Shown piece after piece: positions 3,279-27,106 of a stretch of DNA of 64,000 bases. The stretch is from a virus. Positions within the stretch are counted from its first letter, which is position 1; the number at the start of each line of letters is the position of its first letter. The DNA is taken from the IMG/VR virus record IMGVR_UViG_3300009008_000003; one strand, given 5' to 3'. Position numbers and translations under genes: made by a program. The notes beneath the pieces are model-generated. The model did not search any database. It had not been told where the DNA came from and worked only from the letters and a program-made list of their open reading frames with translations.

Positions 3279-3954
3279 TGAATATCCCCATTGCGTTTGA
3301 GTTTTCTCCTATAAAATCTTTTGCACGATCATGATAGTTCTGTCTTGCCCATACTCCTTCTTCGCCTATATGGTCTACGATTGAGGGTAAAGTGCAGATT
3401 AAGGGATCACCATACTTTTTTACGTCTGTTGTAAGTGACCAATCCCATTCGCGAGCATTGCGCAAACCCCCGACGCTTTTATAAAAATCTGTTCCTATTA
3501 ACAGATTAGCCCCGCCGATGGATGCCTTTACTCCCACATAGTTGCACTCTTCCAATACATCGTGCTGATTAGTGCGAGTATCAAAGCCTGTTATTACTGG
3601 GTATCCATGCATATTAAATATTTTATCTAATGCTTGTGCCCAGTTTTTTGAGTACAACATATCAGAATCTGATATTAAAAAGTACGGGCATTCTTCTAAT
3701 ATCTTACCTTTTCTTAGTATCATATTGATACGCATAACCTTACAAAATGGGATACCGATATGTTTTTCTTCTAGCAGTGTCCAGCTGTATCGCTTGCACA
3801 AGGATCTTACTTTGGTTAATAGAAGTTCTTCTGATCCATCATCTATAATTATTACTTCTACATCATCCGGTAATGCAGACTTTGCTAAGCTTTGTAAGCT
3901 TCTTAATGTTATTTCATCTCTATTATAAGTGGTTACATATAAGGGTTTTTTCAT
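3268..3954 (-). CDS. GT2 family glycosyltransferase
   Basis: VTTYNR, IIIDDGS, SDSD (DxD) motifs. Confidence 0.85.
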   Translation of the reverse strand: MKKPLYVTTYNRDEITLRSLQSLAKSALPDDVEVIIIDDGSEELLLTKVRSLCKRYSWTLLEEKHIGIPFCKVMRINMILRKGKILEECPYFLISDSDMLYSKNWAQALDKIFNMHGYPVITGFDTRTNQHDVLEECNYVGVKASIGGANLLIGTDFYKSVGGLRNAREWDWSLTTDVKKYGDPLICTLPSIVDHIGEEGVWARQNYHDRAKDFIGENSNAMGIFNAE

Positions 3955-14487: not shown

Positions 14488-14561
14488 TACCCAAGACAGG
14501 ATTCGAACCTGCGAATACTGGGCTGAAAACCCAGCGTCTTCGGCCACTTGACTACTTGGGC
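14488..14561 (-). tRNA. tRNA-Glu(UUC)
   Basis: CUGGG-UUUUCAG-CCCAG; cloverleaf. Confidence 0.9.
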
Positions 14562-14656
14562 TGGTGCCGGGGGGAGGATTTGAACCTCCAAATGCGTGCG
14601 AATGCGCCTGAAAGCCCCGCTCCTAACGGTGCGTCTGCCAGTTGCGCCACCCCAGC
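14562..14656 (-). ncRNA. tRNA-Leu-like RNA with aberrant anticodon arm (CCA encoded)
   Basis: GCUGGGG/CCCCGGC-ACCA, Leu-type D arm GCGCAACUGGCAGACGC, T arm intact; no 5-bp/7-nt anticodon arm can be drawn. Confidence 0.65.
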
Positions 14657-16408: not shown

Positions 16409-16481
16409 GACTCGAACCTCCAGAGCTTTTACACCGTAGTCTGGTTAGCAACCAGGTTCCTTACCATTAGGATAGCCCACA
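16409..16481 (-). pseudogene. tRNA-Ser(GCU) truncated in the T arm
   Basis: D arm, CUGG-UUGCUAA-CCAG and variable arm present; stops at GGAGGUUCGAGUC and runs into intron sequence. Confidence 0.75.
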
Positions 16482-16484
16482 AAG

Positions 16485-16558
16485 TAGGAAGGATGAGAAT
16501 TGAACTCATTGTCTCAGCCTTATAAGGACCGTGCATTTACCGCTTGTGCTACCTTCCC
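16485..16558 (-). tRNA. tRNA-Ile(UAU)
   Basis: CGGUC-CUUAUAA-GGCUG. Confidence 0.85.
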
Positions 16559-17851: not shown

Positions 17852-17964
17852 AGCCCGCAGCGAGACTCGAACTCGCAACCTAGGGAGTATACACCTCCGG
17901 CTGCGATGCATGGGTTGTGTACGTTAATAAGACTCCCCTGTTCTACCAATTGAACTATACGGGC
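17852..17964 (-). ncRNA. tRNA-like RNA (Phe/Lys-like body) with ~40-nt insert in the anticodon loop
   Basis: GCCCGUA/UGCGGGC, D and T arms canonical; GGGGAGU...ACUCCCU stem with inner GUACAC/GUGUAU helix. Confidence 0.85.
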
Positions 17965-17969
17965 AAAAG

Positions 17970-18143
17970 GGCAAACGACGAGATTCGAACTCGCACTTTT
18001 TAAGCGGTCTGTTACCCGCAGGGACCCGCATATGGGACTTAAATTCCTTAACCGCTTTCCTTCAGCTAAGACTTGCCACCTATAAGCTTTCTGCGAACGC
18101 ATAGCTTATTCTATTCACTCTGCCAATTTAAGTTACGTTTGCC
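17970..18143 (-). ncRNA. tRNA-like RNA with ~120-nt two-hairpin insert replacing the anticodon/variable arms
   Basis: (G)GCAAACG/CGUUUGC(C), D arm ACUU..GAGU, T arm GCGAG-UUCGAAU-CUCGU; inner stems AUAAGCU/AGCUUAU and AAGCGGU/ACCGCUU. Confidence 0.75.
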
Positions 18144-19000: not shown

Positions 19001-19390
19001 TTATTCCACAATTTTTGCTTTAAGCTCTTCATAGGTGAGATTATGATATGAACGCTGGTGTGTCACAGGATCGACCACGACGAATACTATTTTATTTATT
19101 TTACATATTTCTTTTTTAGTGGTCATGTTACGAACCATACATTCGATGGTAATCGAGCTATTACCCACCTCGACGAGATCACATCCAATTTCGATAAGAT
19201 CGCCCTTACTTGCGGGTGACACAAAGTCTACTTCAGATATGTACTTAGTGACAATAGAGTTAATGCCTGTTTTTGACATTACCCACACAGCCGCTTCCTC
19301 GTCAAGCCAGCTTAATAACCGACCGCCGAATAGTGTTTCGTGACTATTCAAGTCACCTGGCTTAATTAAATGCACCGAACGATATTCCAT
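19001..19390 (-). CDS. acyl-CoA thioesterase (hotdog fold)
   Basis: PGDLNSHETLFGGRLLSWLDE, VDF.SP...GDLIE, VFVVVD. Confidence 0.9.
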   Translation of the reverse strand: MEYRSVHLIKPGDLNSHETLFGGRLLSWLDEEAAVWVMSKTGINSIVTKYISEVDFVSPASKGDLIEIGCDLVEVGNSSITIECMVRNMTTKKEICKINKIVFVVVDPVTHQRSYHNLTYEELKAKIVE

Positions 19391-20676
19391 TAATCCGTCC
19401 TTTCGCCTTCTTCGTGAACGCGTTTTAGTGTTGGGAATCTTAATGAGGGTTTACCTGTTTTCGCATCTTTACATTCTTCAAAATATTTAACCGTTATTTG
19501 TTTTCCAATAAGCTGCTCTGGGTGATAATAGTATTGTACACGTTGGTCATGAGACCAACCGGACCCTACCCCTACTTCGTTTTCTTTGTACATAATAATA
19601 GCCTTTGTCATACAAAGAATTTCTTCTTCGAGCCCAGATTGCTGGCTTATAATACGGAATGGCCCTGTTTCTACACTAACGACTTTAAATTCATCATCTT
19701 TAAATTTCTTTAGTTTAAGAAGTTCATCTGTTCTCTTACCTTTATAGGCAACATTTTTTCTGATCATGATGCCTTCCCAGCCAGACTCTTCGGCTTTATC
19801 CGTAAGCTCTTTAAGATGATTTTCATCTTTGATAAGCTCGTGATTAACTATTTTTATTTTTTTATTATTTAATACTTTTACCAACTTATCGTGCCGTTGA
19901 ACAAGAGTATCTGTAGATGCCGCGTTATCAAAATCCTCTGTACTTAACATATCGAATACCAGGAATTCTGGATTAGGGATAGTGTAATCTTTTTTACGAA
20001 CCAGTTTTACAATGGAAGAAAAATCTTCATCTCCATTTTCGTCAACCATGCAAAGTTCTCCATCTAAAACACAGTTTTTAAGCCCAAGCTCTTTTATCTC
20101 TTCAGCAAGTTTACCAAGAGTTGTAAAAGGTTTACCAGTACGAGAATAGAACAAAGTGTTTCCTCCAGCGTCTATTTTAGCTATACACCGTACTCCGTCC
20201 AGTTTGCGGGAAGCATACCACCCATTTTTGTAATCTACCTTTTTCTTATGTTCCTCATATACTTTAGCAAGAGTTACTTTAAACTCTTTAATAGTATTTG
20301 GCCATACCTGGTTAATTTGCTTAATACCTAATCTAACCTTTAGATTTTTATCTAATATCATGTGGACTATATCGCCATATCCGTTGCAGCTTGCACAATA
20401 ATCATTTATAGTGCGATGAGCTTCATGACCACTTAATCTGCCACTTGCTAAATCATCCAACATTGCTGTTAGACTAACATAGCTATTTTCTGGGGTGTCT
20501 TTTATGTTAAGCTTTAGCAAATTTGCTGAAGTTATACCAAACTGTTTGTCTGGATTATGCGCGTACTCAAAGTATGTTTTTGTATCTGGATACTTAGCTA
20601 ATATTTTCTTCTTTTCGGTCATCGAATTAGTTGTATTTAATTCATCTAGACATGTTTTTAATAATTTTAAACTCAT
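19390..20676 (-). CDS. lig: ATP-dependent DNA ligase
   Basis: KLDGVRC (motif I), LDGEL, FLVFD, WEGIMIR, LLKLK, OB-fold VGSG, SLRFP. Confidence 0.95.
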   Translation of the reverse strand: MSLKLLKTCLDELNTTNSMTEKKKILAKYPDTKTYFEYAHNPDKQFGITSANLLKLNIKDTPENSYVSLTAMLDDLASGRLSGHEAHRTINDYCASCNGYGDIVHMILDKNLKVRLGIKQINQVWPNTIKEFKVTLAKVYEEHKKKVDYKNGWYASRKLDGVRCIAKIDAGGNTLFYSRTGKPFTTLGKLAEEIKELGLKNCVLDGELCMVDENGDEDFSSIVKLVRKKDYTIPNPEFLVFDMLSTEDFDNAASTDTLVQRHDKLVKVLNNKKIKIVNHELIKDENHLKELTDKAEESGWEGIMIRKNVAYKGKRTDELLKLKKFKDDEFKVVSVETGPFRIISQQSGLEEEILCMTKAIIMYKENEVGVGSGWSHDQRVQYYYHPEQLIGKQITVKYFEECKDAKTGKPSLRFPTLKRVHEEGERTD

Positions 20677-20682
20677 AGGTTC

Positions 20683-20886
20683 CTATATCATAAGGTTATT
20701 TTGTATCTTTGTTAATAATTGTAAGTATATGCAATCATTTTTATGTTTCACCTCGTCTGCATCAAATGCTGTTGCAAAACAATGCTTACAAAATTTTTCT
20801 GGTCTTCTATCATCATAGGTGATTGATACTTCCTCTATTAGTAAAAATCTTTCCATCTCTTCTAACAGCTCTCTTGATATTTGCAT
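20683..20886 (-). CDS. hypothetical protein (CxxC, H..C)
   Basis: ORF in operon. Confidence 0.5.
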   Translation of the reverse strand: MQISRELLEEMERFLLIEEVSITYDDRRPEKFCKHCFATAFDADEVKHKNDCIYLQLLTKIQNNLMI

Positions 20887-21558
20887 TTATACTCCTAACT
20901 TATTTATTTTTCTTGGGTCCCACTTGGTCATCCAGTGAACCCCATCTTCATTTATCTCTTTTACAAACTCTGGGCGAACTATTTTGCCCTTCATTTGTTT
21001 ACGATAGTTCTTGACAACTATCCCTTCGCGCTCGTGATCTGTGCTGTAAGCAGATGGCCCTTCTACCAGGTCTTCTATCTCGGTAATAGAATCAACATAG
21101 CCCTCATAAAGCAAAGGCACCAGTTTAATTCCCAGTTCAAAACAGATTAGTTGTTTATCGTCCCTGTTTACAAATTTGCCCTCTTGGAAAATATCTATAC
21201 AGATAAACCAGTCAGGAAGATTATCATAGTATATATGATGAGTAGCCCACATAAATTCGCCATAGATAATTGTATTCTTTGGCATGTAATACGTCAGGGC
21301 TCCCCACCGCTCATTAGCCCACGCTTTCAATCGACCAAATTGTGGATGTTCTCCCTCGTCTACAAGTGAGCCGCGTTTTTGTAAACGAAAACCGTCTTTG
21401 GTAGCGATAATGCCAACGTTAGCACCATCTATTTTTTCTTCTACCGTTAAGTAACCGTTAAGAAGTTGTTTAACTTCTTTCTTGCTTAGCTTTCTTTTAC
21501 CTGAAACATTGTATTTATTTGTAGGTATTCGAAAAGTTTTTTCGTATTTTCTAAACAT
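20887..21558 (-). CDS. RNA ligase family nucleotidyltransferase (Rnl2-like)
   Basis: YEKTFRIP, EEKIDGAN (motif I), IYGEF, REGIVVK, KGKIVRPEF. Confidence 0.85.
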   Translation of the reverse strand: MFRKYEKTFRIPTNKYNVSGKRKLSKKEVKQLLNGYLTVEEKIDGANVGIIATKDGFRLQKRGSLVDEGEHPQFGRLKAWANERWGALTYYMPKNTIIYGEFMWATHHIYYDNLPDWFICIDIFQEGKFVNRDDKQLICFELGIKLVPLLYEGYVDSITEIEDLVEGPSAYSTDHEREGIVVKNYRKQMKGKIVRPEFVKEINEDGVHWMTKWDPRKINKLGV

Positions 21559-21665: not shown

Positions 21666-21812
21666 TATGCTCCCTAACAGCGAGCATAGCAGTGTCGTGA
21701 GAGGCATTGCTACCTGTGTCTTTCGGGGTTTCTGGTTTGGAGCAAACTACTACAAACCCTTTTTCGTAATTTTTAAAATAAGGGCGGGGCACCTATCCTT
21801 GTGCCGCCGCCC
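21666..21812 (-). ncRNA. unassigned hairpin-rich RNA candidate
   Basis: GGGCGGCGGCAC/GUGCCCCGCCC, GGGUUU/AAACCC, AGGUA-GCAA-UGCCU, AUGCUC/GAGCAU. Confidence 0.4.
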
Positions 21813-21904
21813 AGAACATTTTTTATCTTTATTCAATTATGTAAATTGTACAGATTATAAGTCTGTTGCACTATGCGTGCTAAAGATGTAGTCTTCCACT
21901 ATCG

Positions 21905-22110
21905 CTTTCCATGCCTATTCGTTTTAGTCTAATACTTCTGCTCTGCCACTGAGCTAATTCGCCATCAGTGGCACTATAGGTTTGCCATTGCTGCCCAGTT
22001 ATGAGCTGGGTGTACGCAGTTTAGGTTGCGCTATAATGCCTTTGGAGGCGAATATGGGGATCGAACCCATGCGCGAAGGGGTTTTACGAATATCATGTAC
22101 TCGCATGAAA
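21905..22110 (-). ncRNA. circularly permuted tRNA-like RNA (3' half first, 5' half last; YrlA-like topology)
   Basis: 3' half 22043-22092 (T arm, AUUCGCC-U-CCA) precedes 5' half 21916-21963 (GGCGAAU, D arm). Halves pair in acceptor (7 bp), anticodon stem (GAAG/CUUC) and extension (ACGAAUA/UAUUCGU). Confidence 0.75.
21969..22040 (-). tRNA. tRNA-Met(CAU)-like with degenerate T arm, nested between the permuted halves
   Basis: GGCAUUA/UAGUGCC-A; CCCAG-CUCAUAA-CUGGG; T loop reduced to GGCAAACC. Confidence 0.65.
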
Positions 22111-22261
22111 CAGTTTCATGACCGTTAAACTATACGGCGAAACACTAATCATTAAGCTGACCCATACACTACCTTCTTTAACGTCCGGTCGTATGGTTGT
22201 GATTCTAAAGCTGAGGCTACCGTATATTAAGGCGATCGCTTTTATATTCTATATAATGCGA

Positions 22262-23005
22262 TCATCCTTTATTGATGAAATTGAAAATCTTGGAACCGAT
22301 TTTAACGTCTTGAGCGATGACTTGGTTGGCCTTTACTCGTGCTTTCTTGACGGCTCTGATAAGAGAGTCAATACGTCCTAGACGTTCAGATTTTTCTCCA
22401 GGAGTAAGTCTGGCAGAATTGTAAATCGTTTCGTAAGAACCGACTTGTTCTTCCTTTACAACAAGTTGTACCTGTGCAGGATGCTCCTTAGTTGCGGGAG
22501 CTAATTCAATCGGAACTTGTTTCTTAACTACACGAAAACGTACTTCAGGATCAGTTTTCATGAAGCCAGAACCGGCACCGGTGTCTTTTTTCCAGACTCG
22601 AGCGGGATCCAGTGTAGGAATCGCTTTGTACATGGCACGAATTTCCATGAGCTGGGTTTCCAGGGCCAGCAACGAGGTAGCAGAAAGCTCCACTTCATCG
22701 TTACCGATTTTGACAGCCGACTTAGCCGAGCCAGAACTATTAGTCATCTCTTTGGAAACGATAGCATCCACGCTTTTGGATACTTGCTTGGCTACAAAAG
22801 CGAGTTTATCGTCAACAGTTGTGACAATCGCTTTTTCGTCTTTGGGGATCTGTTCCCCGTCTTCATCCATAGGGCTATAAGTTTTCAGAACCCCGTCGAA
22901 ATGTTCGGAACGTTTGGTGAACGTTGTGATGCCCTCACCCAAAGCATTTGTTGCAGAAGATCTCAACGAACCTTCCACGGCTAGCAATTCATGTAATTTA
23001 CCCAC
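22262..23005 (-). CDS. conserved hypothetical protein
   Basis: 247-aa helical ORF (MGKLHELLAVEG...). Confidence 0.8.
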   Translation of the reverse strand: MGKLHELLAVEGSLRSSATNALGEGITTFTKRSEHFDGVLKTYSPMDEDGEQIPKDEKAIVTTVDDKLAFVAKQVSKSVDAIVSKEMTNSSGSAKSAVKIGNDEVELSATSLLALETQLMEIRAMYKAIPTLDPARVWKKDTGAGSGFMKTDPEVRFRVVKKQVPIELAPATKEHPAQVQLVVKEEQVGSYETIYNSARLTPGEKSERLGRIDSLIRAVKKARVKANQVIAQDVKIGSKIFNFINKG

Positions 23006-23453: not shown

Positions 23454-23475
23454 CAGTAAAATAATCTAAAACTAG

Positions 23476-23842
23476 TGGAGACGGCGGGAATTGAACCCGC
23501 GTCCATCAAAACCTTTAACCAAAGTCATTCACAGCTTAGTTAGTTTTTTACACTTTATTTAAAGACGCTAGTAACGCTTCACTAAACAACGCTCATTATC
23601 GTCTACTCCGAGTTGGTCTCCTCGGTTGTCACAGAGTGGATTTAAATTTGTATCGCCATTAAATCCCTATGGCTAGTCAGTTATTTTTACGCCACTATCA
23701 GTACCAACTAACAGGTCTGTAGTAGCGGGTAGCCCTCAGGCTGCCAAAGCGTAAGATTTATCATTTAAATTTTGGTAAGCCTATGACTAGGCTTATGCTG
23801 CACTTCGATCTCAAATAACGACGTCGAAACCAATTCGTCCCC
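23476..23842 (-). ncRNA. ssrA: tmRNA; tag (A)DKSYALAA at 23736-23762
   Basis: GGGGACGAAUUGGUUUCGAC...GGACGCGGGUUCAAUUCCCGCCGUCUCCA; G3:U70; ORF GAT AAA TCT TAC GCT TTG GCA GCC TGA. Confidence 0.95.
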
Positions 23843-24666: not shown

Positions 24667-25557
24667 TTAAAAATTTCCATAATTCACCTGAAAGCAAGGG
24701 AGCCCAAGATCTTTACGCCAAAGATCAACTACTTGATCTCTATCATCAAGGACGAATTCAACAAAGTATTTATCCTTAATATGCTTCTCGTAAAGCTCAC
24801 GTTTAACAATCGAGTCTTTTCGCGTATCTCCCGCAGCTCTCATAAAAACCTTATCATATACTATTGCATTTTTATCAAGCCATTCTATGCTTGCATCTTT
24901 AGCTACTCCGTCCCGACCTGACAAGATTATTATGCTAATTTTATAACCTTCGAAAAAGGCTGCCTGCGCTACTAATGAGGCCACAGGTTCATTGACTTTA
25001 TCGTCGCCAACTTTATCCCAATCAAAAGGTCCACGTTGACCAGCAAACAATGCAAGTGTTCCATCCAGATCAACAAGTATAGCTGCAGGCAAAGAGTTAT
25101 CCTGCTTAGCAGCAAAAGAAGCTTCAGGTGTCTTTACATACTGGTCATGCATATCACGAATAACCTTTTCGCCTACTGAATTGGGTCGGCCAAGATCACG
25201 CTTAATACATTCATCAAGTGGAAGATCAAAATCTTTTACCTCAACTATAATGTTGGTACCTTGGACCTGGTTAAAGGTCTTAACTAAGCTTTGTATAGTA
25301 GTCAGGTGTGATGGGTGAAAGTTAGTATCATCAATGATAACACTTTTGCCATCAGACAATGCTTTGAGCATTAAATCGTTTCTGACCTGTTTGACAAATT
25401 TCTCATTGTCTCTGGACCAATGACTTACATCAAGCATAGCACGAAGATCATCCTTGTTTATCCGCTTATACCTCCCAGGATGAGCAGCAACCATCTCTTT
25501 AGCCCAAGTGGATTTCCCGGAAGCGGGCAACCCTCTTAGGAAATGTACTTTTCTCAT
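24667..25557 (-). CDS. pseT: polynucleotide 5'-kinase/3'-phosphatase (T4 Pnkp-like)
   Basis: GLPASGKSTWA, RINKDDLR, DLDGTLA HAD motif, LDDRDQVVDLWR. Confidence 0.95.
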   Translation of the reverse strand: MRKVHFLRGLPASGKSTWAKEMVAAHPGRYKRINKDDLRAMLDVSHWSRDNEKFVKQVRNDLMLKALSDGKSVIIDDTNFHPSHLTTIQSLVKTFNQVQGTNIIVEVKDFDLPLDECIKRDLGRPNSVGEKVIRDMHDQYVKTPEASFAAKQDNSLPAAILVDLDGTLALFAGQRGPFDWDKVGDDKVNEPVASLVAQAAFFEGYKISIIILSGRDGVAKDASIEWLDKNAIVYDKVFMRAAGDTRKDSIVKRELYEKHIKDKYFVEFVLDDRDQVVDLWRKDLGLPCFQVNYGNF

Positions 25558-26663
25558 TTATTCTCCTTATGTTCAAAATCCCACCAAACCGCTTTCCAGA
25601 CGAGCTTCATTACCATTTTCTCTTTCTTATCCCACATGGCAAAGAGTAGTCCTGGGTCTTTATATCGTTGGAAAGTTTTGGCCACGTATTTACGTTCGTC
25701 TTCATCTCTTAATCTTGTATCAATAATGAAGTTTAAAGCATCCCAAGAATACTTAGCATAACTCTCCTTGAATTCCTTGACAAGTTTATCCACCCACTCC
25801 CAGTGTTCCTCAAGAACACCTTCTTTGAGCTTATCTATTTCGTCGTTTACAAGATACTCGAATACTTTCTTTGGAGTTAGGGATACACGCATGCGTTGTA
25901 ACTCCTTGTATTCTTCGAATTTAACCTTAACGCGAAGGTTGCTTGGACGATAGTGTACAACTACACCTTCCTTATTTTGGAAGATATCCTCTGTGCCCCG
26001 TTTTACAAGCTGATCAAAATCACTTTCATAAACTGTATGGCTTGGAGTATATTCTACCGGCATAGGAAATCCCGGGTTATAGTAATCTAGCTCTTCCCCG
26101 GTAGCTGTGTTGATAACCGTTATAAGATAAAGAGCTTCTTCATCTCCGTAATCAAGTACAAGCCTATCTTCGGCTCTATCTTCTGGGTAGATAATTTCGA
26201 ATTGATATGTGTAGTTGGGGTTAAGCTGATTCAGCAAGTGGCTATATTTTTTATTTAATATTTCATTAGCTCTTATAGCTTGCCGGGAGTCAAATGATCC
26301 TCTGGTAGCAATATAAGGCTTATCGCCCATGAAATACATAATGCCGGCATAACCATCTAGCTTATCTTGTATTACATAGTCATCGTCTGGTAGTACGATT
26401 CCCTGGTCTTTCAATTCATTATAATTAAAGAACTTAGGAATAGGACGAGAAATTATTTTAAACTCATTAGTAGATGTATCTACGATAAGACCTCTACACT
26501 GGCAGATAACGTCGTTCCAGCGCCAATTGAACATGGCCTTATGAGCATAGTTATAAATAACTAAAGCGGGGTTGTCAGGATGTACTTGTTTTCTTATATA
26601 TCCCTCAAGGATCATTTCGTCAATGGCGAATTCGTCCTCCATTGTCAAGATTCTATTAAGCAT
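25554..26663 (-). CDS. T4 RNA ligase 1-like
   Basis: CRGLI, PKFFN, KLDG (motif I), EGVVV, RVKVK; adjacent to Pnkp. Confidence 0.9.
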   Translation of the reverse strand: MLNRILTMEDEFAIDEMILEGYIRKQVHPDNPALVIYNYAHKAMFNWRWNDVICQCRGLIVDTSTNEFKIISRPIPKFFNYNELKDQGIVLPDDDYVIQDKLDGYAGIMYFMGDKPYIATRGSFDSRQAIRANEILNKKYSHLLNQLNPNYTYQFEIIYPEDRAEDRLVLDYGDEEALYLITVINTATGEELDYYNPGFPMPVEYTPSHTVYESDFDQLVKRGTEDIFQNKEGVVVHYRPSNLRVKVKFEEYKELQRMRVSLTPKKVFEYLVNDEIDKLKEGVLEEHWEWVDKLVKEFKESYAKYSWDALNFIIDTRLRDEDERKYVAKTFQRYKDPGLLFAMWDKKEKMVMKLVWKAVWWDFEHKENK

Positions 26664-27106
26664 AGTTCCTCCAATATTGGTTTAAGCACTTTCTTCTGCG
26701 CTTCGTTTACCATAAATAATAACATGGTTCCATCAACCAAGAGATAATCGTCTACCTCTGGTTTTGTTTTTCTATCTATATCTGAAACAAAAGTAGAGGC
26801 ACATTTAAGTTTAGATAAATCTATTTCGTGTACTTGTATAGAAAATACAGCCATATTTTTATTTTTTATATATGAGTAAGTATCGTGGTAGGTTATAGCA
26901 GACGCGGCTACCCCGTCGTCATCAAAAACCAGTCCGGTTTCTTCTTCCACTTCTCTAAGCGCAGTACTTATTAGAAGTTCGCCATCTTCTTGAACACCTT
27001 TCGGCAGAGACCAGAAATCATGTTCGGTTACATGGCATAGCAATATCCTGTTGGTTTTTTTATCTATTATTATAGTTGCAGCTGTTGTAACCATTTTGAT
27101 CTCCAA
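26645..27106 (-). CDS. Nudix hydrolase
   Basis: PKGVQEDGE...TALREVEEETG. Confidence 0.9.
   Translation of the reverse strand: MEIKMVTTAATIIIDKKTNRILLCHVTEHDFWSLPKGVQEDGELLISTALREVEEETGLVFDDDGVAASAITYHDTYSYIKNKNMAVFSIQVHEIDLSKLKCASTFVSDIDRKTKPEVDDYLLVDGTMLLFMVNEAQKKVLKPILEELCLIES

What the first reader, a model, noticed from the sequence alone, without database searches (positions are those of the whole stretch)
21905..22110. Circularly permuted tRNA-like RNA with a whole tRNA-Met-like gene nested in its acceptor loop
Seen, in transcript order: extension-UAUUCGU..CUUC-GCGC-T arm-AUUCGCC-U-CCA; then the tRNA-Met(CAU)-like gene (21969-22040); then GGCGAAU-D arm-GAAG..ACGAAUA-extension. The outer halves pair in three places (7-bp acceptor, 4-bp anticodon stem, 7-bp plus CAUG/CAUG extension), which is unlikely by chance. 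Established analogues: permuted tRNAs of Cyanidioschyzon, two-piece tmRNAs, and bacterial YrlA Y RNAs (T arm before D arm, bound by Ro60/Rsr). No Ro60 gene is in this window. Nesting a second tRNA-like gene in the loop, with CCA encoded, would let RNase P/Z release a two-piece, possibly chargeable (Cys-like GGCG/U73) RNA (inference).
Basis: partly seen in the sequence, partly recalled or inferred. Interest (0 to 1): 0.8.

Follow-up and report, generated by a model that had tools for sequence, protein, structure and literature searches.

The report
Phage tRNA-mimic RNA beside DUF7873
This marine phage encodes a back-to-front tRNA look-alike of the Y-RNA (YrlA) type. It belongs to a large, unannotated RNA family that sits directly after an unstudied phage protein gene (DUF7873), usually in genomes without the Ro60 protein such RNAs normally serve, and this copy alone carries an extra cloverleaf-shaped insert at its acceptor end.

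Summary
On the minus strand, about 22120-21904, the order is T arm, acceptor 3' strand, U73-CCA, a 72-nt insert, acceptor 5' strand, D arm, and the two ends pair with each other.

It is neither chance nor misassembly:
- A covariance model built from 83 related elements, window excluded, scores it 59.4 bits (E 5e-15).
- The genome record holds no second copy of either half.

It belongs to a family found just downstream of nearly every DUF7873 gene I fetched, including cultured Gordonia, Rhizobium and Klebsiella phages. The acceptor stem, anticodon-like stem and Levitt 15:48 pair all covary.

The architecture is that of YrlA, but three YrlA features fail:
- Rfam's YrlA model does not reach threshold.
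- The Ro60-binding motif is present in 1 of 105 elements.
- 10 of 12 near-complete carrier genomes lack Ro60.

The "nested tRNA-Met gene" is overstated. It is a stable cloverleaf-like insert with a CUCAUAA loop but no T arm and no G18G19. No tRNA finder calls it, and no other family member has one.

RNase P opening into a two-piece RNA with a CCA end is plausible, because M. smegmatis YrlA does this, but it is untested. Cys-like charging has no support.

This scan has already noted the DUF7873-RNA pair many times on other DNA.

The parts
21904..22120 (-). Whole tRNA-mimic RNA (minimum extent): 5' hairpin, closing helices, permuted tRNA-like head, insert
   Evidence: Sequence; fold; R1 hit on 21932-22084 at 59.4 bits
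22262..23005 (-). DUF7873 gene (247 aa), the conserved upstream neighbour and candidate protein partner
   Evidence: Pfam PF25283, E 3e-68. Relatives in more than 110 loci are followed by the RNA
22104..22120 (-). 5' hairpin CAUGAAA-CUG-UUUCAUG
   Evidence: Sequence; L001 has a counterpart, CUUUU-GAACUG-AAAAG
22086..22102 (-). 5' strands of the closing stem: GAGUA (loop-E-like), P3 CAUG, bulged A, P2 UAUUCGU
   Evidence: In L001 and L004 both P2 strands are different sequences that still pair. In L001 P3 differs from the window by a compensated change, in L004 it is a different paired sequence. GAGUA is kept in L001, AAGUA in L004
21906..21922 (-). 3' strands of the closing stem: P2 ACGAAUA, bulge GG, P3 CAUG, GAAA
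   Evidence: Flank duplexes across the family: cognate -20.2 against non-cognate -12.9 kcal/mol
22075..22085 (-). T-side internal loop AAAACCC and the P1 strand CUUC (tRNA positions 40-43)
   Evidence: All five P1 pairs covary in 83 sequences
21923..21938 (-). P1 strand GAAG (positions 27-30) and the D-side internal loop UAUUAGACUAAA with the AUYAG motif
22054..22074 (-). Variable loop GCGC (C48) and T arm AUGGG-UUCGAUC-CCCAU
   Evidence: U54, U55, C56 and A58 are invariant in the family
22043..22053 (-). Acceptor 3' strand AUUCGCC, discriminator U73, encoded CCA
   Evidence: None of the window's 17 ARAGORN-called tRNA genes encodes CCA
21970..22040 (-). Cloverleaf-like insert: 10-bp stem, 4-bp hairpin, 5-bp hairpin with a CUCAUAA loop, no T arm
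   Evidence: Fold z = -2.67, 1 of 200 shuffles as good. Not called as a tRNA. Unique among 105 members
21940..21963 (-). Acceptor 5' strand GGCGAAU (U at -1), U8 A9, D arm GCUC-AGUGGCA-GAGC (A14, G15, G18G19)
21770..21812 (-). Likely intrinsic terminator of the unit: GGGCGGCGGCAC-AAGGAUAG-GUGCCCCGCCC followed by UUAUUUU
   Evidence: Read from the sequence; the hairpin is visible in a cmscan alignment; the simple scan missed it because the stem is bulged

Best explanation
Shown: this is a single-module member of a large phage family of circularly permuted tRNA mimics of the YrlA type. They are encoded on the same strand, 60-450 nt downstream of a DUF7873 gene. The head keeps the complete tRNA elbow: 7-bp acceptor stem, T arm, D arm, U8, A14, G18G19 and an R15:Y48 Levitt pair. 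In place of an anticodon arm, the two ends of the RNA pair into a long bulged stem.

Inferred: the RNA is a stable non-coding scaffold that works with DUF7873 as a ribonucleoprotein, without Ro60. The bulged closing stem, which in this clade carries an AGUA/GAA loop-E-like motif, would be the protein-binding module. The tRNA-shaped head would engage enzymes or factors that recognise tRNA. The 72-nt cloverleaf-like insert and the encoded CCA are lineage-specific decorations of the acceptor end.
For: - Family membership: R1, built without the window, gives 59.4 bits, E 5e-15.
- Linkage: 87 of 107 DUF7873 loci pass a strict pattern scan. The 19 loci that failed it and were then searched with R1 all have a hit, 18 downstream of the gene and one (L029) upstream. 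All 111 hits at E <= 1e-7 lie on the gene's strand, and one of them is a tRNA-junction false positive.
- Neighbours: no protein family recurs next to DUF7873, at most 2 of 91 flanking ORFs.
- Structure: P1, which my scanner did not select for, is paired in 69.5% of cells with double-sided changes at all 5 pairs. For the whole structure, 87.8% of cells pair, against 36-48% when the partners are slid.
- Tertiary fold: 15:48 is G:C in 50 and A:U in 47 of 105; U8 in 104, A14 in 103, GG in 99 of 105.
- Closing stem: cognate flank duplexes average -20.2 kcal/mol against -12.9 for non-cognate pairs. P2 and P3 change sequence but keep pairing between the window, L001 and L004.
- Independence from Ro60: TROVE is absent from the own record and from 10 of 12 carrier genomes that are at least 90% complete. 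The GNCGAAN0-1G motif is found in 1 of 105 elements. The two genomes with TROVE carry a separate YrlA-like RNA beside it, and one of those has GUCGAAUG.
Against: - There are no transcript, binding or processing data.
- The DUF7873 model (pLDDT 87.6) matches no known fold and is not markedly basic, with a median pI of 6.4.
- Adjacency alone does not show binding. An earlier audit in this scan priced the RNP claim at 22/100.
- The own record is only about 74% complete, so a phage Ro60 could lie in the missing part, and a host Ro60 cannot be excluded.
- In the window the long-range P2 competes with a local hairpin.
- The window has one module where many relatives have two.
Confidence: 0.5

Rival explanations
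1. Processed two-piece tRNA mimic. RNase P cuts 5' of G+1 (GAU|GGCGAAU), as it does in M. smegmatis YrlA. The insert is removed or trimmed, and the RNA ends in a genuine U73-CCA-3' held in place by the acceptor, P1, P2 and P3 helices. That end could be charged, or could soak up host factors or toxins that act on tRNA CCA ends. This is compatible with DUF7873 partnership.
For: - The head has a 7-bp acceptor stem stacked on a 5-bp T stem, U at -1 and G at +1.
- CCA follows N73 in 55 of 103 members, and U is at -1 in 54 of 103.
- The window encodes UCCA although none of its 17 ARAGORN-called tRNA genes does.
- M. smegmatis YrlA is cut by RNase P and carries CCA in vivo (PMC4201824).
Against: - The eight closest relatives have no CCA, and in several of them (clearest in L001 and L004) a hairpin directly continues the acceptor helix, so the end is closed.
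- CCA is also common in ordinary tRNAs of related loci, 43 of 119, so in general it may simply follow local tRNA style.
- Encoded CCA could instead block RNase Z (from general knowledge) and keep the loop intact.
- There are no conserved identity elements: G3:U70 in 3 of 103, and no anticodon.
- The insert lacks the T arm that RNase P uses.
Confidence: 0.25
2. Classical Ro60-dependent Y RNA (YrlA), serving a Ro60 supplied by the host or encoded in the missing quarter of the phage genome. In this reading DUF7873 is only a neighbour.
For: - The topology is the same as YrlA.
- Rfam YrlA hits relatives at 26-38 bits, E 4e-5 to 0.25.
- TROVE is present in 2 of 12 near-complete carrier genomes, once about 4 kb from DUF7873.
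- The own record is 74% complete.
Against: - The window element gets no YrlA hit at E up to 10.
- The Ro60-binding motif is present in 1 of 105.
- 10 of 12 near-complete carriers lack TROVE.
- The genomes with TROVE have their own extra YrlA-like RNA beside it.
- The RNA tracks DUF7873, not TROVE.
Confidence: 0.15
3. A true permuted tRNA gene. The ends would be cut and joined by the neighbouring Pnkp, Rnl1 or Rnl2-like enzymes, then opened at the acceptor to give a decoding tRNA, as in Cyanidioschyzon.
For: - The 3' half lies before the 5' half.
- RNA ligases and Pnkp flank the locus.
- An AUYAG-like motif after P1 resembles half an anticodon loop.
Against: - No 7-nt anticodon loop can be formed. 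P1 is followed by a 12/7-nt internal loop and a further 7+4 bp of helix.
- There is no helix-bulge-helix motif.
- RNA ligases are not conserved neighbours of the family.
- The acceptor is closed by plain hairpins in many members.
Confidence: 0.03
4. Chance resemblance, a decayed tRNA pseudogene pair, or an assembly artefact.
For: The fold z-score of the whole region is only -1.74.
Against: - R1 gives E 5e-15.
- More than 100 independent homologues covary.
- No second copy of either half exists.
Confidence: 0.01

Closest known systems
YrlA (Y RNA-like A; Rfam RF02553), the tRNA-mimicking Y RNA bound by bacterial and phage Ro60/Rsr (Chen et al. 2014, PMC4201824; Wang et al. 2018, 10.1101/312249)
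   Same: Permuted order with the T arm before the D arm. The acceptor stem is closed by a loop. The elbow nucleotides and a covarying Levitt pair are conserved. The ends pair into a stem where the anticodon arm would be. Relatives are often tandem, like YrlA/YrlB. A 7-bp acceptor stem, as in M. smegmatis YrlA, which RNase P cuts.
   Different: Below the Rfam threshold: no hit for the window, 26-38 bits for relatives against a cut-off of 69. No GNCGAAN0-1G Ro60 motif. Linked to DUF7873 instead of Ro60, and most carrier genomes lack Ro60. The window copy carries a 72-nt branched insert after an encoded CCA.
Permuted tRNA genes of Cyanidioschyzon merolae, some green algae and Thermofilum (from my own knowledge)
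   Same: The 3' half is encoded upstream of the 5' half, and the flanks pair.
   Different: Those mature, through a helix-bulge-helix cut and ligation, into ordinary decoding tRNAs. Here there is no anticodon loop, no such motif, and no splicing endonuclease is expected in bacteria.
Two-piece (permuted) tmRNAs of alpha-proteobacteria, beta-proteobacteria and cyanobacteria (Rfam RF01849-RF01851)
   Same: Permuted T-arm and acceptor module, and processing into two paired pieces with a CCA end.
   Different: No tag reading frame or pseudoknots. It has a full D arm. 3:70 is C:G, not G:U. The only hits near these models are very weak ones to the T arm alone. The phage also has an ordinary one-piece tmRNA at 23473-23842.
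Small stable tRNA-like RNAs of phage tRNA clusters (T4 species 1 and 2; T5 RNA1 and RNA2), and this phage's own anticodon-less tRNA-shaped RNAs
   Same: Encoded among phage tRNA genes, with a tRNA body, no decoding function, and unknown role.
   Different: Those are not permuted and are not tied to DUF7873. I did not compare them here; this is from earlier notes and my own knowledge.

Membership tests
YrlA (Rfam RF02553) | tRNA-like module in permuted order (T arm, closed acceptor stem, D arm) with tRNA tertiary nucleotides | tested here: met
   Family-wide U8, A14, G18G19 and R15:Y48
YrlA (Rfam RF02553) | Score at or above the curated gathering threshold (69 bits) | tested here: not met
   No YrlA hit on the window element at E up to 10. 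Relatives score 26-38 bits. Ro60-adjacent phage elements also score only 33-43 bits, so the model is insensitive for phages.
YrlA (Rfam RF02553) | Ro60-binding motif GNCGAAN0-1G near the 5' end (Chen et al. 2014) | tested here: not met
   Absent from the window RNA and present in 1 of 105 family members. Present as GUCGAAUG beside a phage TROVE gene, which serves as a positive control.
YrlA (Rfam RF02553) | Encoded beside, or co-occurring with, a Ro60/TROVE gene | tested here: not met
   No TROVE in the 139.8-kb record, which is 74% complete. TROVE is present in 2 of 12 carrier genomes that are at least 90% complete. Host Ro60 could not be assessed.
YrlA (Rfam RF02553) | Bound by Ro60 in vivo | not testable with these tools
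   Needs immunoprecipitation or a gel shift.
   59.4 bits, E 5e-15, with the window excluded from the seed
   The gene ends at 22262 and the T arm starts at 22070. Same arrangement.
   Only one R1 hit in the window and in the whole record. The window's clade (L001-L004, L050, L051) is single-module.
Permuted tRNA genes (Cyanidioschyzon type) | Joined halves give a 7-nt anticodon loop; the flanks form a helix-bulge-helix splice motif | tested here: not met
   P1 (4 bp) is followed by a 12/7-nt internal loop, a 7-bp helix, an A/GG bulge and a 4-bp helix.
Two-piece tmRNA | G3:U70, a tag reading frame with pseudoknots, and a match to the permuted tmRNA models | tested here: not met
   3:70 is C:G. 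The only tmRNA hit is a 7-bit match to the T arm.
tRNA (the nested insert, 21970-22040) | Recognised by tRNA models; T arm with UUCRA; G18G19 in the D loop | tested here: not met
   No Rfam tRNA hit at E up to 10. ARAGORN finds nothing at default settings or at a relaxed threshold. The sequence shows an AACCUAAACU loop and no T arm.
tRNA (the nested insert, 21970-22040) | 5-bp stem with a 7-nt loop carrying U33 and a purine at 37 | tested here: met
   CCCAG-CUCAUAA-CUGGG

The most novel reading that the evidence does not exclude
In this phage the tRNA mimic is a processing cassette. RNase P, with trimming nucleases, opens the acceptor loop. That yields a two-piece DUF7873-bound tRNA mimic with a genuine U73-CCA 3' end, and separately a T-armless mini-cloverleaf that displays a Met/Ile2-type CAU anticodon loop. 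Each piece would act as a decoy or substrate for host factors that touch tRNA ends or CAU anticodons, such as defence toxins or modification enzymes. The cassette would thus be a natural tRNA-scaffold system delivering a second small RNA.
Probability: 0.12. Interest if true: 0.8.

Novelty: new variant of a known kind. Interest (0 to 1): 0.6.

Why it matters
Y RNAs of the YrlA type are the only described bacterial RNAs with this back-to-front tRNA shape, and they are defined by Ro60. Here the same shape is tied to a different, uncharacterised protein in well over a hundred phage loci, mostly in genomes without Ro60. Several cultured, genetically tractable phages (Klebsiella, Gordonia, Rhizobium, Vibrio) carry it unannotated or mis-annotated. 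That makes directly testable the question of what tRNA mimicry by Y-like RNAs is for. It also identifies a probable RNA-binding function for DUF7873. The window's own copy adds an unusual natural example of a structured "cargo" inserted at the acceptor end of a tRNA scaffold.

Tried and rejected
- Rfam at gathering and at E up to 10, and ARAGORN, on the locus: nothing relevant.
- PHROGs for DUF7873: no family.
- Fold of DUF7873 against PDB by Foldseek, against 48,161 chains by VIA-align, and against BFVD: only non-specific helical matches, best Z 8.8 over 121 residues, rmsd 3.5.
- Profile of DUF7873 against PDB sequences: E 0.17 at best.
- ESM Atlas: only DUF7873 clusters.
- Genome-contig scan: 4 loci only, because a single peptide pattern was used.
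- Neither viral nor metagenome contigs hold a DUF7873 closer than 50% identity. The insert and the window-specific CCA therefore cannot be tested by covariation.
- Exact 19-nt pattern from the insert's CAU hairpin in viral contigs: 0 hits.
- BLAST of both halves and of the insert against the whole record: self hits only.
- Idea of a cyanobacterial HIP1 signature: GCGATCGC occurs once in the window, so no enrichment.
- Promoter and terminator scan: no more sites than chance.
- Literature: no paper mentions DUF7873. The YrlA and permuted-tRNA searches gave no description of this pairing. A 2026 preprint on three tRNA-mimic families concerns other RNAs.
- Burroughs and Aravind 2016, and Sim et al. 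2020, could not be read.
- I did not run complex prediction, because no protein-protein claim is made.

Full report
**What is there**

The window is the minus strand of a 139.8-kb IMG/VR virus record that is about 74% complete. Read on the minus strand, 22120-21904 runs as follows:
- a small hairpin (22120-22104), then GAGUA
- P3 strand CAUG, a bulged A, P2 strand UAUUCGU
- a 7-nt A-rich loop, then P1 strand CUUC
- a 4-nt variable loop ending in C48
- a canonical T arm (AUGGG-UUCGAUC-CCCAU)
- the acceptor 3' strand AUUCGCC, U73, CCA, AA
- a 72-nt insert, then CUGAU
- the acceptor 5' strand GGCGAAU, U8 A9
- a canonical D arm (GCUC-AGUGGCA-GAGC), A26
- P1 strand GAAG, a 12-nt loop, P2 strand ACGAAUA, GG, P3 strand CAUG, GAAA

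The minimum-free-energy fold reproduces every helix. The ensemble is diffuse, however: z = -1.74, and a local hairpin GCGAGUA/UAUUCGU competes with P2. ARAGORN and Rfam call nothing at this locus. A bulged GC-rich hairpin with a U tract at 21812-21770 is the likely terminator.

**More than chance, and not an artefact**

The upstream gene (22262-23005) is a DUF7873 protein. I fetched its relatives from viral contigs (32 loci), from metagenomes (80 loci), from species genomes (4 loci) and from cultured phages (75 records).

A strict pattern scan looked for a T arm, seven nucleotides, then within 140 nt their perfect complement followed by a D arm. It found such an element within 600 nt downstream of the gene, on the same strand, in 87 of 107 loci with enough flank. 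In 27 loci it found more than one.

I aligned 83 unique elements, excluding the window, and built covariance model R1.
- R1 scores the window element at 59.4 bits, E 5e-15. All other window hits are at 33 bits or less and lie at junctions of neighbouring tRNA genes.
- The 19 loci that had failed the strict scan and that I then searched with R1 all have a hit of 43-71 bits, 18 downstream of the gene and one (L029) upstream. So do Gordonia phage Fryberger, Rhizobium phage RHph_Y65 and Klebsiella phage FBKp24.
- In those three cultured phages the RNA is unannotated. In FBKp24 it is partly labelled "tRNA-Sup-TTA".
- Across 100 sources, all 111 hits at E <= 1e-7 lie on the DUF7873 strand. One of them is a tRNA-tRNA junction.
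- The own record has a single element and no second copy of either half.

**Structure by comparison**

On the 83-sequence alignment, 87.8% of cells pair, against 36-48% when the partners are slid. All 21 pairs show changes on both sides.

The T, acceptor and D stems were selected by my scanner, so their pairing percentage is partly built in. P1 was not selected. It is paired in 69.5% of cells and all five of its pairs show double-sided changes.

Two further features were also not selected:
- The Levitt pair is G15:C48 in 50 and A15:U48 in 47 of 105 elements. U8, A14 and G18G19 are almost invariant.
- The 40-nt flanks outside P1 pair far better with their own partner than with partners from other elements (-20.2 against -12.9 kcal/mol). 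For 72 of 103 elements the cognate partner beats at least 27 of 30 non-cognate ones.

In the window's own clade, P2 and P3 change sequence but stay paired:
- Window: UAUUCGU/ACGAAUA and CAUG/CAUG.
- L001: CUUCUA/UAGAAG and CAUA/UAUG.
- L004: UUCUUGU/ACAAGA and GUAU/GUAC.

The flanking GAGUA...GAAA is kept in L001, and L004 has AAGUA...GAAA. AGUA opposite GAA is the consensus of the loop-E or bulged-G motif, a common protein platform. That identification is from my own knowledge and is an inference.

**Relation to YrlA and Ro60**

The topology is exactly that described for YrlA (PMC4201824). Rfam's YrlA model hits relatives over its full length, but at 26-38 bits against a threshold of 69. It does not hit the window element at all.

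The reported Ro60-binding motif GNCGAAN0-1G occurs in the 5' flank of 1 of 105 elements.

TROVE is absent from the own record. Among carrier genomes at least 90% complete, it is present in 2 of 12. Those two genomes each carry a further YrlA-like element next to the TROVE gene. One of these has GUCGAAUG in its closing stem. The Ro60-linked RNA and the DUF7873-linked RNA are therefore separate modules that can coexist.

No protein family recurs beside DUF7873. The RNA ligase, Pnkp and DNA ligase around the window locus are a local circumstance, not part of the module.

DUF7873 folds confidently (pLDDT 87.6): helices plus a long beta-hairpin bearing the invariant KEHPAQVQ. It matches no solved or viral predicted fold. 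It has seven conserved basic residues but a near-neutral overall charge.

**The acceptor end and the insert**

Among 103 unique members:
- N73 is U in 51.
- CCA follows N73 in 55.
- The base before G+1 is U in 54.
- 1:72 is G:C in 78.
- G3:U70 occurs in 3.
- The loop has a median of 16 nt, and the window's 83 nt is the longest.

Ordinary tRNAs in related loci encode CCA in 43 of 119 cases. In general, then, CCA may simply follow local tRNA style. In the window, however, none of the 17 ARAGORN-called tRNA genes encodes CCA, while the mimic does.

The eight closest relatives lack CCA, and in several of them (clearest in L001 and L004) a hairpin directly continues the acceptor helix. Other long loops in the family are plain hairpins. 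Only the window has a branched insert.

The insert folds stably: -25 kcal/mol, z = -2.67. It forms a 10-bp stem, a 4-bp hairpin, a CCCAG-CUCAUAA-CUGGG hairpin and a 2-bp stub. It has an anticodon-like CAU loop but no T arm and no G18G19. No tRNA tool calls it, and nothing like it was found elsewhere. With no relative closer than 50% protein identity, its conservation cannot be assessed.

**How it most likely works**

Shown: the RNA is a conserved L-shaped tRNA mimic with a closing stem, genetically locked to DUF7873.

Inferred: it is the RNA subunit of a DUF7873 ribonucleoprotein that uses a tRNA-shaped head to engage tRNA-recognising factors, by analogy with Ro60-YrlA. I give this about 0.5.

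Whether the acceptor loop is opened is undecided. The determinants for bacterial RNase P are present, and M. smegmatis YrlA sets the precedent. But the closed acceptor ends of the nearest relatives argue that an open end is not essential to the family. I give opening about 0.25; it is compatible with the main reading.

Charging is unlikely as a family trait, because there are no identity elements. The Cys suggestion has only U73 and four acceptor bases behind it. A decoding permuted tRNA is very unlikely, at about 0.03.

**Novelty and standing**

The kind, a YrlA-type tRNA mimic, is known. The DUF7873 linkage, the lack of the Ro60 motif and the insert make this a new variant. I found no description in the searchable literature, but I could not read Burroughs and Aravind 2016.

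This scan has already recorded the DUF7873-RNA pair many times on other DNA (251 notes in at least 149 genomes). My result agrees with those notes independently. Specific to this window are the single-module form, the branched CAU-loop insert, and an encoded CCA in a phage whose tRNA genes lack it.

Noticed in passing
L041:498-593 (G003, about 900 nt upstream of a TROVE gene); L042:2767-2841 (G001, about 1 kb downstream of a TROVE gene): The two DUF7873-carrying phage genomes that also encode Ro60 have a separate permuted tRNA-like RNA beside the Ro60 gene. The G003 copy has the canonical GUCGAAUG Ro60 motif in a long GC-rich closing stem.
   Followed up: partly
L131:3518-3597 against the R1 hit at 3556-3655 (Klebsiella phage vB_KpM_FBKp24, MW394391.1): The public record annotates a 'tRNA-OTHER / tRNA-Sup-TTA' that overlaps the tRNA-mimic RNA. 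This looks like a mis-call of the permuted element. The record also annotates a promoter between DUF7873 and the RNAs.
   Followed up: partly
window 21923-21934 (-) and the equivalent position in family members: Right after P1 many members carry A-U-Y-A-G. UNAG occurs within the first 8 nt in 46 of 105. Of 68 members with the looser U-N-A-R motif there, 61 have a triplet that would be a leucine anticodon (UAG 22, CAG 12, UAA 11, AAG 8, CAA 4, GAG 4), although the body has a short variable loop. It may be a vestigial anticodon half-loop or a U-turn motif; unexplained.
   Followed up: partly
window 21850-21866 (-) and 21854-21883 (-): Between the RNA and its terminator lies a hairpin ACAGA-CUUAUAA-UCUGU with an anticodon-like 7-nt loop. 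It overlaps the best promoter-like match in the region (TTAGCA-18-TATAAT, 10 of 12).
   Followed up: no
window 22086-22104 (-): GCGAGUA can pair locally with UAUUCGU, competing with the long-range P2 helix. The centroid fold prefers this local hairpin. L001 does not conserve it. It could be a folding intermediate or a switch.
   Followed up: partly
window 17932-18008, 14528-14603, 16450-16523 and others (-); L130:339-415: A permuted-tRNA covariance model scores junctions of closely spaced tandem tRNA genes at up to 33 bits in the window, and 43 bits in Rhizobium phage RHph_Y65. Hits below about 45 bits need the acceptor pairing checked by eye.
   Followed up: yes
G000:C1:119009-119197 (-), outside the window: A 378-aa open frame gives a weak PolyA_pol (CCA-adding enzyme family) match of 14.2 bits, below the cut-off. 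It could be a divergent nucleotidyltransferase, which would be relevant because this phage's tRNA genes lack CCA.
   Followed up: no
window 19390-21558 and 24667-27106 (-): Around the locus lie an Rnl2-like RNA ligase, an ATP-dependent DNA ligase, a T4-type Pnkp, an Rnl1-like ligase and a NUDIX protein. This is an RNA-repair set interleaved with tRNA genes, a tmRNA and other structured RNAs.
   Followed up: partly
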